Assembly: GCA_965235115.1 (NCBI GenBank)
Contig: OZ249450.1
Span: forward strand, 19,468,001-19,532,000
Source: Laetmonice hystrix
Taxonomy: Eukaryota
Direction of reading: 5' to 3'
DNA length: 64,000 bases
Below are positions 30,001 to 64,000 of the stretch, piece after piece. The position numbers were made by a program. Numbering within the stretch: the first letter of the stretch is position 1; each line of letters starts with the position of its first letter.

Positions 30001-33000
30001 GAAGCTCATTTCTGGGGTTCTGATTGGATGGTTTCACTTGACCATCCAATCGGAATTAGGTTTTCCATCTCAAGATTGCCAGGCGTTTGTTTCTCACCCG
30101 TTTCCTACCTCTGCCATGCTGATAAATCTCCCCAGTATTTTGAGAAGTGTACACGAAGTTTCCTACCTTTGCCATGCTGATTGAATCTCCCCAGTATTTT
30201 GAGAAGTTTCCAAGAAGTTTCCTACCTTTGTCATGCTGATTGAATCTCCCCAGTATTTTGAGAAGTGTACACGAAGTTTCCTACCTTTGCCATGCTGATG
30301 AATCTCCCCAGTATTTTGAGAAGTTTACAAGAAGTTTCCTACCTTTGCCATGCTGATGAATCTCCCCAGTATTTTGAGAAGTTTACAAGAAGTTTCCTAC
30401 CTTTGCCATGCTGATGAATCTCCCCAGTATTTTGAGAAGTTTACAAGAAGTTTCCTACCTTTGCCATGCTGATTGAATCTCCCCAGTATTTTGAGAAGTT
30501 TACAAGAAGTTTCCTACCTTTGCCATGCTGATAAATCTCCCCAGTATTTTGAGAAGTGTACAAGAAGTTTCCTACCTTTGCCATGCTGATGAATCTCCCC
30601 AGTATTTTGAGAAGTCTACAAGAACTTTCCTATCTTTGCCATGCTGATGAATCTCCCCAGTATTTTGAGAAGTCTACAAGAACTTTCCTATCTTTGCCAT
30701 GCTGATGAATCTCCCCAGTATTTTGAGAAGTCTACAAGAAGTTTCCTACCTTTGCCATGCTGATGAATCTCCCCAGTATTTTGAGAAGTCTACAAGAACT
30801 TTCCTATCTTTGCCATGCTGATGAATCTCCCCAGTATTTTGAGAAGTCTACAAGAACTTTCCTATCTTTGCCATGCTGATGAATCTCCCCAGTATTTTGA
30901 GAAGTCTACAAGAAGTTTCCTACCTTTGCCATGCTGATGAATCTCCCCAATATTTTGAGAAGTGTACACGAAGTTTCCTACCTTTGCCATGCTGATTGAA
31001 TCTCCCCAATATTTTGAGAAGTGTACACGAAGTTTCCTACCTTTGCCATGCTGATGAATCTCCCCAATATTTTGAGAAGTGTACACGAAGTTTCCTACCT
31101 TTGCCATGCTGATTGAATCTCCCCAGTATTTTGAGAAGTGTACAAGAAGTTTCCTACCTTTGCCATGCTGATAAATCTCCCCAGTATTTTGAGAAGTTTC
31201 CAAGAAGTTTCCTACCTTTGCCATGCTGATTGAATCTCCCCAGTATTTTGAGAAGTTTCCAAGAAGTTTCCTACCTTTGCCATGCTGATGAATCTCCCCA
31301 GTATTTTGAGAAGTTTACAAGAAGTTTCCTACCTTTGCCATGCTGATGAATCTCCCCAGTATTTTGAGAAGTGTACAAGAAGTGCGATCGCAACAATCAG
31401 GAAGAGGAGGCCCGTGAGAAACCACCAGATTCCACAGCAACATATCTTCTTCACTTTTTTCCTTATCTTCTTCTTCTCGCTGTCTATCGAACCTTCTATG
31501 TCCTTCGACATGATGGCACACTGGCAACGTTCTACCTCAGATTAGGAATGATTCTGGAAAAACAATTGATTTGAGTGCATGTTAAAGTTGAGAAAAATTC
31601 AGTAAAAATGGCAAGGATATGTTAGAAAGATACAGGTACCAAAGCCCTGGGCCCGGTTTCAGAAAGGTTAGCATCTTAACTTAAGCTCTGCTTAAGACCT
31701 CTGATTGGCTGGTCCTCTGCTGCTCAACTTCAACCAGCCAATGAGAGGCTCCAAGCAGAACTTAACTTAAGATCCTAATCTTTTTAAAACCGGCTCTTTC
31801 ATTGACTAAAGCTACCGAAATGGGCCATGCATTCTCAAAACGAAACGGTAGACTAAGAGAGAAAGAGCGTATATTTTGTGGCTTTATCCTGTATATTAAC
31901 TGTTGGTATCGTTGTGTTCACAGGGACATGTATGGCCTCTTCCTGGAACTGGTGAACACAATGGTTCTATTGTATGGTGGTCGGCACATTGGCAACCACC
32001 GACCCCAACGTGTTTCGGTCTGCAGCAGTCTGTCTTCACTGGAGGGAGGGACTTCCGACCGCAGTATTATGGGATGGCGGCAGTGGGCGGCCAGGCCGGC
32101 AGGGTCACTCACCAATATCACAGACCGCCGGTAGCTGGCCACCCGACACTCAAGCTTGTACCTTGCCTGATGTGAGACCAAACAGGTCTTACTACATGGT
32201 GAGAACTACTCCACACACATCATGTCTATGTTTCGGTTGGTTTGCTGTTCGTTTACGGTTGTTTGTTTCTTCAATTATCATCTTATCACCTTTTAGGTTT
32301 TGAACAATTTTCTCTAGATTTACTTAATTTTACTTCTCTCTTTTTTATTAAAGTTTTACAAATATATGCTGATAACTTGATAAATATGAGGTTCCTGAGA
32401 TTTGTCTTATCAATTTCAAACCGAGGAACATGTTGGTTGGTCCAAAAACTATTTCGCTTACTAATTCTGCCTGCTCTCTGTCCATTTACCCCCCGGGGGT
32501 GATAATGTTGTCACTGTCAGATTAGTGAATGTCATCCACCACAAGCAGCGTTACCGATCTATGGATTCACCGTATTCACAGTCCCTCATCTACACATCCA
32601 CAATAGTGAAAACTATTTTTTAGACAATTCATCTAATTTATATTCATCTCTTTATTTTCTTAAATATTATTTTTCAAAACACCCGGTAGCATTCCTAACA
32701 CCTTAATGAGAGATTCATTTCCATCAATTAATATCGTAACTCTTTCTGGGATTCCATCAAAATGTCAACCCAGACAGAAGATAAACATCTTTATTTCAAA
32801 ACTTGCAGAGTTTTTTTTAAAAATTCATGTAGTAGTTGATGAAAAGGTCAGAATAAATAATATTTAGGAAGCCACAAGCGTAATTAGTCTGTATGGGAGG
32901 TCAACGAACATAAAACGTCTCAAAGTTAAGGTTATTCTCGCTTGACTTGAGATTGGGGAGTAAGTTGTCTTCTCATTAAACGACGGTTTCAGGATACAGG

Positions 33001-63000: not shown

Positions 63001-64000
63001 TGAAGGCCTCCACCTTCCACCATTAAATACATTTTTGTTTTTTTGCTCGATTTTCTTCACCGAACTTGGCGGCTGGAGTTTGAGATCAAAAAGTCCTGAA
63101 AATAGAGAAAGCATGTGGCATTAAGCCATCACTATCGTACGTCATTTACCCTTTACCTTAACTTATAATAGAGAAAGCATGTGGCATTAAGCCATCACCA
63201 TCGTACGTCATTTACCCTTTACCTTAACTTATAACCTTGTCTACATTAAACAGAGAAAGCATGTGGCATTAAGCCATCACTATCGTACGTCATTGACCCT
63301 TTACCTTAACTTATAATAGAGAAAGCATGTGACATTAAGCCATCACCATCGTACGTCATTTACCCTTTACCCTAACTTATAACCTTGTCTACATTAAGAT
63401 TCCAAATGTCTGATTGTATAAACCACATTGGAAACTGTTTCCAGATGTTGATTTATCGGTAAACGTTACGTCATCATGGACACACAAAGTCCTACACTGG
63501 GCCCGTTGCATAGAAAATCAATAACTTTAGTATAACTGATGGATAATATTTATTTGTACGATACGACCAGGACGGCAGTAAGTTACGAGTGAGTTATCTT
63601 GTTGCCGTTGTATAATAATGTTCGTATAGCACTCTCGCTTGCCAACATTTTTATACAGCGCATTCCTATACATACGAGGAAAGATATCAACTTGGTTTAA
63701 TGGCCACTAGTTATTTACTAGACATTTACTGTATACCTTCTCAGCTTCTGTCTGTAACGGGTCATGTATTTATCACGACATGATACAGCACAGCCCCAAG
63801 CTCTCGACCATGTGGGCTACGCACATCTCACCGTGCATATTGCGGGGATGGGGAATTAAAATGGATTTTCAATGAAATGCCACTGCCATATCGGGAGGGG
63901 ATTATGTACCTGTGCAATAGCATTACAATACGAGTCGATTGTCATACTAAAGGCCTGTGTCCACTTGAGCGGTATGCCGCGCGTCCTAACGCCGCGTGAT

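What the first reader, a model, noticed from the sequence alone, without database searches (positions are those of the whole stretch)
30100..63397. Minisatellites in this window are preferentially anchored on splice signals
Seen: at least seven arrays in four genes contain or end within about 40 nt of a splice site. These are the donor array 30100-31381, the acceptor array 51882-52292, HHIPL introns 5, 6 and 8 (41485-42150, 48605-48978, 49575-49998), MS4A-like intron 1 (55368-55795) and the GT7 intron (63103-63397). Inference: either a mutational process seeds tandem duplications at exon-intron boundaries (transcription/splicing-coupled breaks, R-loops, or template switching with RNA intermediates), or such arrays are retained for a regulatory effect. 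Short introns make some proximity expected by chance.
Basis: partly seen in the sequence, partly recalled or inferred. Interest (0 to 1): 0.65.

Follow-up and report, generated by a model that had tools for sequence, protein, structure and literature searches.

The report
Intron minisatellites hugging splice sites
Several tandem-repeat arrays in these compact animal genes sit on or right beside splice sites, a pattern already described in lancelets as "mirages"; the excess over chance in this single window is suggestive, not proven.

Summary
All seven arrays exist at the stated coordinates. With exon models I built exon by exon, each one spans a splice junction or stops 4-42 nt short of an exon.

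- **Boundary-spanning arrays.** Array A (30100-31383) repeats the last 51 nt of a putative exon plus its donor. Array F (51877-52293) repeats an acceptor plus the first 29-32 nt of a probable last coding exon.
- **Purely intronic arrays.** Five arrays all abut acceptors.
- **Statistics.** Length-matched placement inside the same introns gives Fisher p = 0.003 for 8 arrays, 0.006 without the least certain exon and 0.03 without two. A seed model expects 1.4-2.5 of 11 arrays near a junction against 7 observed. The window was picked for this pattern, so this is suggestive only.
- **Motifs.** Units are not generally enriched for GT, AG or branch-point motifs.

Most likely these are neutral local tandem duplications in a minisatellite-rich genome (15.9% of the window), probably a cephalochordate. 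A possible acceptor-side bias needs a genome-wide test.

The parts
30100..31383 (-). Array A, 58 nt x22. Each unit is the last 51 nt of putative exon 1 plus the first 7 nt of the intron (a donor 'mirage').
   Evidence: 22 junction copies, 18 keep GT over a 20-nt match to the outermost donor. An in-frame TAG follows the first donor directly. 58 is not a multiple of 3.
31333..31511 (-). Putative exon 1 of a small four-exon gene encoding a two-TM protein with a proline/tyrosine-rich tail. Other exons: 29545-29674, 29083-29225, 28853-28913.
   Evidence: ATG, canonical GT/AG at all three introns, phases consistent, terminal stop. Coding score is weak to moderate (0.01-0.23 per codon). No Pfam family.
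41491..42150 (+). Array B, 27 nt x25, in HHIPL-like intron 5 (40995-42176). It ends 26 nt before exon 6 (42177-42316).
   Evidence: The unit carries a CTAAC-type motif (16 CTRAY in the array). Exon 6's nearest named Atlas clusters are GSDH (score 0.83, a lead only).
48602..48974 (+). Array D, 42 nt x8.7, 80% pyrimidine on the sense strand, at the 3' end of HHIPL-like intron 6 (42317-49016). 42 nt of intron remain before exon 7 (49017-49098).
   Evidence: It creates a 303-nt AG-free zone before the acceptor.
49245..49291 (+). Small perfect 19-nt x2.5 duplication in HHIPL-like intron 7 (49099-49308), 17 nt before exon 8. It duplicates a CTGAC motif.
49575..49996 (+). Array E, 42 nt x9.9, almost AG-free. 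It ends 9 nt before a putative terminal exon 9 (50006-50088, hydrophobic tail).
   Evidence: Exon 8 and exon 9 have negative coding scores. A read-through of exon 8 to a stop near 49394 (read by eye, not checked by script) is an equally plausible C-terminus, so the intronic status of E is uncertain.
51877..52293 (-). Array F, 52-54 nt x7.8. Each unit is about 22 nt of intron 3' end (pyrimidine tract and TATAG) plus the first 29-32 nt of the putative last coding exon (51822-51905) of the four-TM MS4A-like gene (an acceptor 'mirage').
   Evidence: 8 of 8 copies keep the acceptor. Every copy gives an open tail ending in a stop (10-27 codons). Exon coding score is 0.39 per codon against a 95th percentile of 0.19.
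55371..55791 (-). Array H, 39 nt x10.8, in intron 1 (55360-56203) of the MS4A-like gene. It ends 11 nt before exon 2 (55261-55359).
63100..63397 (-). Array K, 66 nt x4 (148 x2). Its last unit supplies the pyrimidine tract of the acceptor of the first Pfam-supported GT7 exon (62863-63095), and 4 nt of intron remain.
   Evidence: Exon: Glyco_transf_7N, E = 1.6e-27.
46166..46619 (+). Comparator array C (33 nt x13.8) in HHIPL-like intron 6 between two nested GPCR genes. It is 2397 nt from the nearest HHIPL junction.
53919..54598 (-). Comparator array G (26/109 nt) in MS4A-like intron 2 (53668-55260), 251 nt from the acceptor.
60858..61621 (-). Comparator array J (61 nt x12.4) in GT7 intron 60390-61723, 102 nt from the donor. 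It expands the tail of a dispersed repeat.

Best explanation
These are locus-specific minisatellites made by local tandem duplication and then expanded by slippage or unequal exchange. The genome carries very many of them and its genes are compact.

Two arrays are boundary duplications of the kind called "mirages" in lancelets. Array A repeats an exon end with its donor. Array F repeats an intron end with its acceptor and the start of the exon.

Four to five others are purely intronic. Their 3' edge stops 4-42 nt before an exon, so the last unit supplies part or all of the branch-point and pyrimidine-tract region.

Inferred, not shown:
- They are neutral passengers.
- Splicing stays correct because the outermost site is used (the first donor, as shown experimentally for human F7 intron 7; the last or any acceptor).
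- Use of inner copies is harmless or removed. At array A there is an in-frame stop right after the donor and the 58-nt unit shifts the frame. At array F every acceptor gives a short open tail.
- Proximity to junctions is partly chance in short introns and partly a real bias of unknown cause.
For: - **Abundance.** Seventeen arrays of at least 190 nt make up 15.9% of the window.
- **Local origin.** For 16 of 17 arrays the unit has no copy elsewhere in the window. Array J has one hit, to a dispersed element.
- **Array A.** 22 junction copies, 18 with GT, identical over 20 nt to the outermost donor; a stop follows directly after the donor.
- **Array F.** 8 of 8 acceptor copies are intact and repeat homology runs 29 nt into the exon.
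- **Gaps to the exon.** 26, 42, 9, 11 and 4 nt.
- **Excess over length-matched placement.** Fisher p = 0.0031 (8 arrays), 0.0058 (7, without E), 0.031 (6, without E and K). Count within 41 nt: 4 observed against 1.11 expected, P = 0.012.
- **Seed model on the array-collapsed region.** 7 of 11 observed against 1.4-2.5 expected, P = 0.0001-0.004.
- **Precedent.** Mirages in amphioxus Adh3, globin, TnC and PGBD5 genes do not disturb splicing (passages). The F7 pseudo-donors stay silent (abstract).
- **Taxon lead.** The nested GPCR's nearest Atlas cluster is chordate.
Against: - No transcript data, so none of the splice sites is proven.
- Array A's exon 1 has only weak coding support and no family hit. 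HHIPL exon 9 has a negative coding score. Array F's exon competes with a read-through stop 5 codons after exon 5, read by eye.
- If A and E are counted as misses, P(at least 5 of 11) is 0.008-0.076.
- The window was selected for this pattern, which inflates all p-values.
- Five of the seven arrays do not span a boundary, so they are not mirages in the strict sense.
- All five close intronic arrays lie on the acceptor side, which a purely neutral uniform model does not predict (two-sided binomial 0.06, my arithmetic).
- The organism is not established.
Confidence: 0.6

Rival explanations
1. Pure chance. Arrays are so frequent and introns so short that some windows will show seven arrays near junctions, and there is no genome-wide enrichment.
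For: - Arrays fill 43-65% of six introns (lengths).
- Individual p-values are modest: 0.10, 0.083, 0.057, 0.016, 0.014.
- With the two weakest exon models counted as misses, P(at least 5 of 11) reaches 0.076.
- The window was flagged post hoc.
- Three of 10 large arrays in the four genes are far from any junction.
- Array ends in general show no excess of acceptor-like tracts: 9 of 34 against 6.2 expected.
Against: - The combined within-intron test stays at p = 0.006 after dropping the uncertain intron 8.
- Arrays D and K sit 42 and 4 nt from the exon in introns with 6,327 and at least 607 free nt.
- Independent reports of the same pattern exist in at least four amphioxus genes.
Confidence: 0.25
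2. A mutational process tied to the 3' splice-site region (pyrimidine-tract slippage, or splicing- or transcription-coupled breaks) seeds tandem duplications at intron ends.
For: - All 5 close, wholly intronic arrays are on the acceptor side, with their 3' edge in or just before the pyrimidine tract.
- The one-sided acceptor test on 8 arrays gives Fisher p = 0.0002, but it is post hoc.
- A young perfect 19-nt x2.5 duplication lies 17 nt before an acceptor.
Against: - No general link between array ends and acceptor-like pyrimidine tracts.
- Sense-strand pyrimidine content of the close arrays is 45-80%, high only in D.
- Array A sits at a donor.
- Low-threshold TRF found hardly any further young duplications to test.
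- No data on breaks or R-loops.
Confidence: 0.18
3. The arrays are retained because they regulate splicing, for example through multiplied branch points, long AG-free zones or alternative C-termini.
For: - Arrays D and E create AG-free zones of 303 and 421 nt before their acceptors, against 9-44 nt for the other 19 of 21 acceptors.
- Array E holds 18 CTRAY motifs.
- Array F offers 8 acceptors with three kinds of open tail.
- A C. elegans minisatellite is over-represented near multiply alternatively spliced regions (passages of PMC4039745).
Against: - AG depletion is not significant at unit level (P = 0.12-0.13 for B and E). In D it follows from composition.
- CTRAY is absent from 8 of 11 arrays.
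- Units share no sequence.
- Published mirages do not alter splicing.
- No conservation or expression data.
Confidence: 0.07
4. Gene-model artefact. Some 'splice sites' were called because the repeats themselves look like donors or acceptors, so proximity is circular.
For: - Array E is AG-free, so the first AG after it is bound to be close, and exon 9 has no coding support.
- Array A's exon 1 and array F's exon have no family hit.
- 0 of 5 MS4A-like exons hit Pfam.
Against: - The acceptors next to B, D, H and K are each fixed by an upstream in-frame stop, the phase required by the neighbouring exons, and homology or coding score.
- Without E the test still gives p = 0.006.
Confidence: 0.1

Closest known systems
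[quoted passage not shown] Adh3 (Canestro et al. 2002, not held, known only through citing papers); globins BflGb6 and BflGb9 (PMC3087553 section 16, passages read); PGBD5 and TnC (PMC3902484 section 17, passage read).
   Same: Arrays A and F have units of tens of nt that span a donor or an acceptor with part of the exon, and the splice signals are kept in most or all copies. Both 5' and 3' boundaries are affected. Units are locus-specific, and the arrays show subfamilies of variant units.
   Different: Five of the seven arrays stop short of the exon and so do not span the boundary. Splicing, length polymorphism and the host taxon could not be tested here. An acceptor-side bias of purely intronic arrays is not described in the passages I read.
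Human F7 intron 7 37-bp VNTR (PMC1557585, abstract read).
   Same: As in array A, the first unit spans the exon-intron boundary, so the authentic donor is followed by identical pseudo-donors.
   Different: Different organism and gene. Array A has 22 copies against a few in F7. Choice of the most upstream donor is shown by experiment for F7 and only inferred here.
C. elegans CeRep25B intronic minisatellite near alternatively spliced regions (PMC4039745, passages read).
   Same: An intronic minisatellite associated with splicing-relevant positions.
   Different: CeRep25B is one dispersed family carrying known regulatory motifs. Here every array has its own unit.
Intron gain by tandem duplication across AG/GT proto-splice sites (the Rogers model as cited in PMC3087553; PMC3265369 and PMC2891723 seen in a search listing only).
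   Same: Duplicated boundaries provide spare donors and acceptors that could turn exon copies into new exons or introns.
   Different: No evidence here that any intron arose this way.

Membership tests
Mirage minisatellites (boundary-spanning tandem duplications) | Head-to-tail repeat with a unit of tens to about 160 nt | tested here: met
   units of 27-148 nt, 2-25 copies, 73-97% matches for the seven arrays.
Mirage minisatellites (boundary-spanning tandem duplications) | The unit spans an exon-intron boundary, so it holds part of the exon and the splice site | tested here: inconclusive
   Met for A (51 nt exon + 7 nt intron) and F (about 22 nt intron + 29-32 nt exon), if their exons are real. 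Not met for B, D, E, H and K, whose homology ends 4-37 nt before the exon.
Mirage minisatellites (boundary-spanning tandem duplications) | Many copies keep the AG/GT signals | tested here: met
   A keeps GT in 18 of 22 copies; F keeps the acceptor in 8 of 8.
Mirage minisatellites (boundary-spanning tandem duplications) | Regular splicing is not disturbed | not testable with these tools
   No transcript data. Only the reading-frame consequences were computed.
Mirage minisatellites (boundary-spanning tandem duplications) | Length instability between haplotypes or tissues | not testable with these tools
   Only a single sequence is available.
Mirage minisatellites (boundary-spanning tandem duplications) | Host is a cephalochordate | tested here: inconclusive
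   The Atlas nearest cluster of the nested GPCR is chordate, 'OPSD protein (Fragment)'. That this naming style belongs to a lancelet annotation is recalled, not tested.
F7-type donor VNTR | The first unit spans the exon-intron boundary and is followed by identical pseudo-donors | tested here: met
   array A, conditional on exon 1 being real.
F7-type donor VNTR | Only the most upstream donor is used | not testable with these tools
   Inferred from the in-frame stop after the donor and the frame shift of 58 nt.
GSDH / HHIP-like beta-propeller (host gene) | Match to Pfam PF07995 | tested here: met
   3 of 10 ORFs hit. Exon 1: E = 4.6e-6, 26.6 bits against a cut-off of 25, profile positions 1-118. 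Exon 3: 24.0 bits, positions 143-189. Exon 4: 20.4 bits, positions 190-233, colinear with the others. Exons 5-7 have no Pfam or PDB hit. Exon 6's nearest Atlas clusters are GSDH at 0.83.
Glycosyltransferase family 7 (host gene) | Match to Glyco_transf_7N and Glyco_transf_7C | tested here: met
   3 of 5 exon ORFs hit, with E = 1.6e-27, 1.2e-20 and 2.6e-17 at colinear profile positions.
MS4A / CD20 (host gene) | Match to the CD20-like family profile | tested here: not met
   0 of 5 exons hit any Pfam family, though the exons are only 27-47 aa. The four-TM topology and the motif resemblance are read by eye and recalled. The joined protein was not searched, by instruction. I call it 'four-TM, MS4A-like' only.

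The most novel reading that the evidence does not exclude
In this genome, minisatellite birth is coupled to the 3' end of introns. Genome-wide, the 3' edges of intronic arrays would pile up within about 40 nt upstream of acceptor AGs, far more than at donors or in intron interiors. That would point to a mutational process linked to the pyrimidine tract or branch site, or to splicing, and it would also feed boundary duplications (mirages) and intron or exon gain.
Probability: 0.2. Interest if true: 0.65.

Novelty: new member of a known kind. Interest (0 to 1): 0.35.

Why it matters
Arrays that multiply a real donor (18 intact copies) or acceptor (8 copies) are natural tests of how the spliceosome picks one site among identical ones. 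They are also a proposed raw material for intron gain, exon gain and new C-termini.

Boundary duplications have been reported gene by gene in lancelets. In the held literature I found no genome-wide test of whether arrays prefer splice sites, or of a donor/acceptor asymmetry. This window gives a concrete, cheap hypothesis for such a test.

For annotation, it warns that gene finders will meet many perfect pseudo-sites in this genome.

Tried and rejected
- **Six-frame Pfam scan of 10-kb chunks.** I sent stop-free ORFs and exons instead.
- **PDB sequence search with HHIPL exons 6 and 7.** 0 hits at E up to 10.
- **Pfam on the five MS4A-like exons.** 0 of 5 hit. The three exons of the two-TM gene that were searched gave only sub-threshold chance-level rows.
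- **Motif enrichment in units.** CTRAY occurs only in B (16), E (18) and the small 19-mer (2). GT and AG are not enriched. AG depletion in B and E gives P = 0.12-0.13. Rejected as a general property.
- **Pyrimidine-tract association of all array ends.** 9 of 34 ends against 6.2 expected at the threshold of 10 pyrimidines, and 5 against 3.1 at 11. No support.
- **Transposon origin.** 16 of 17 units have no other copy in the window. Only array J touches a dispersed element.
- **Rfam and tRNA scans.** Nothing found.
- **TRF at score 30.** No further arrays of 100 nt or more in 28800-64000.
- **Primary mirage paper (Canestro 2002).** Not held under its PMC id or its DOI.
- **Upstream exon of the GT7 gene.** I looked for a TM-coding exon in 63398-64000 and saw none. 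I therefore took that intron to run to the window end or beyond.
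Full report
**Material and limits**

The window has no N, is about 45% G+C and has CpG observed/expected of 0.48-0.77. I do not take it for human. Its genes are compact, two intronless rhodopsin-type receptor genes are nested in an intron, and the conserved GT7 and GSDH exons are only distantly like the family profiles.

The joined step (searching or folding a joined coding sequence) was left out.

These stayed unchecked:
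Orthologues, intron-position conservation and the organism's identity therefore stayed open.
Additional files 4-7 of PMC3087553 (alignments of mirage units) could bear on the comparison and were not seen.

**The arrays**

Tandem Repeats Finder lists 51 rows. These reduce to 17 arrays of at least 190 nt, together 10,156 nt or 15.9% of the window. All seven arrays of the finding are there, within 0-6 nt of the stated ends.

Each array has its own unit. For 16 of 17, a two-unit probe found nothing elsewhere in the window. Array J (60858-61621) has one hit to a dispersed element that it abuts. So the arrays arose locally, not by spread of one element.

**Gene models**

- **HHIPL-like gene (+).** Nine exons were read and checked. 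Exons 1, 3 and 4 match Pfam GSDH colinearly (3 of 10 ORFs searched). Exons 5-7 have no Pfam or PDB hit. They are fixed by upstream in-frame stops, by phase and by coding score, and exon 6's nearest named Atlas clusters are GSDH (0.83, a lead only). Exons 8 and 9 have negative coding scores. A read-through of exon 8 gives another hydrophobic tail, so intron 8 is uncertain.
- **GT7 gene (-).** Five exons; 3 of 5 hit Glyco_transf_7N or 7C strongly. Its upstream exon is not in the window.
Six phase-0 exons with coding scores of 0.13-0.40 per codon, against a 95th percentile of 0.19 for random open windows. 0 of 5 exons hit Pfam.
- **Small four-exon gene (-).** It encodes two TM segments and a proline/tyrosine-rich tail. 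Sites and phases are canonical, coding scores are weak and there is no family hit.

**Where the arrays sit**

Intron nt left between the array and the exon:

| Array | Coordinates | nt to exon | Side |
|---|---|---|---|
| B | 41491-42150 | 26 | acceptor |
| D | 48602-48974 | 42 | acceptor |
| E | 49575-49996 | 9 | acceptor |
| H | 55371-55791 | 11 | acceptor |
| K | 63100-63397 | 4 | acceptor |
| small 19-mer | 49245-49291 | 17 | acceptor |

Alignment to an inner unit puts the end of homology at 27, 37, 9, 13, 4 and 3 nt.

Array A overlaps the last 51 nt of putative exon 1. It has 22 copies of the junction, 18 of them with GT and otherwise identical over 20 nt. An in-frame stop follows the donor, and 58 is not a multiple of 3.

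Array F runs 29 nt into the putative last coding exon. All 8 acceptor copies are intact, and each would give an open tail of 10-27 codons.

Three large arrays in the same genes are far from junctions: C at 2397 nt, G at 251 and J at 102. Array I lies upstream of the four-TM gene.

**Is it more than chance?**

- **Uniform placement of each array inside its own intron.** Fisher p = 0.0031 for the 8 large, wholly intronic arrays, 0.0058 without E and 0.031 without E and K. Four arrays lie within 41 nt against 1.11 expected (P = 0.012). D misses this cut by one nt.
- **Seed model.** Arrays in region 28847-64000 were collapsed to one unit each. The model expects 1.4, 2.5 or 1.8 of 11 arrays near (42 nt or less) or across a junction, for the whole region, gene spans or introns only. 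Seven are observed (P = 0.0001, 0.004, 0.0005). If A and E are counted as misses, P(at least 5) = 0.008, 0.076, 0.024.
- **Boundary spanning.** This is not rare under the model, at 4-16% per array, rising to 27% when seeds are limited to gene spans.

These figures come from one window that was flagged for the pattern, so they are suggestive only. All five close intronic arrays are on the acceptor side (binomial 0.06, my arithmetic). This asymmetry is post hoc.

**Signals in the units**

CTRAY occurs in B, E and the small 19-mer only. GT and AG are not enriched. D and E give AG-free zones of 303 and 421 nt before their acceptors, against 9-44 nt at the other 19 of 21 acceptors. But D is 80% pyrimidine, and the AG depletion of B and E is not significant at unit level.

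Because E lacks AG, the first AG after it must be close. E is therefore weak evidence.

Array ends in general are not next to acceptor-like tracts (9 of 34 against 6.2 expected).

**Known relatives**

[quoted passage not shown] It cites Adh3 and other loci, says both boundaries can be affected and that splicing is regular, and suggests the phenomenon may be general in cephalochordates.
- PMC3902484 (passage) adds PGBD5 and TnC.
- The human F7 intron 7 VNTR has its first unit across the donor, and only the upstream site is used (abstract).
- Six searches of the held library found no genome-wide test.

**Verdict**

Its core is a known kind of structure, here with new examples. The preference for splice sites, and for acceptors in particular, remains a hypothesis worth a genome-wide test.

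Noticed in passing
43456-44508 (-) and 46733-47725 (-): Two intronless rhodopsin-type receptor genes (Pfam 7tm_1, E = 2.9e-13 and 4.3e-13) are nested antisense in the 6.7-kb intron 6 of the HHIPL-like gene. They are paralogues, about 69% identical over 320 nt.
   Followed up: partly
18714-19560, 36775-37816, 33702-33827, 62384-62503, 61535-61720: A dispersed repeat family (84.5% identity over 802 nt between two copies) with a tail of short GGGATA/GGGTTA-like motifs. Array J (60858-61621) looks like an expansion of such a tail.
   Followed up: partly
23867-24689 (+): A three-exon stretch reads like splicing factor SF3B6/p14. The RRM_1 hit is weak (E = 0.031) and the name is recalled from the peptide. 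Its introns hold no array. Array 25101-25620 lies about 300 nt past its AATAAA.
   Followed up: partly
15446-16263: A 51-nt x16 array at 99% identity is open in several frames on both strands (ORFs of 287-349 aa). No gene context was found. An acceptor-like tract lies 38 nt beyond its low end on the minus strand.
   Followed up: no
9864-10232 (-): This is the strongest coding-score ORF in the first 28 kb (41 bits; acidic and lysine-rich, starts with M). It has no Pfam family. Arrays 7369-7560 and 7805-8247 lie downstream of it on that strand.
   Followed up: no
48714-49016 and 49583-50003: AG-free zones of 303 and 421 nt lie before two acceptors and are created by arrays D and E. All other modelled acceptors have 9-44 nt.
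   Followed up: yes
50392-50457: A perfect 26-nt x2.5 duplication lies about 300 nt after the putative HHIPL-like stop codon. It may be a young array in the 3' UTR.
   Followed up: no
56644-57196: A 124-nt x4.5 array lies about 390 nt upstream of the start codon of the four-TM gene. An acceptor-like site 20 nt before that ATG hints at an unseen 5' UTR exon.
   Followed up: no
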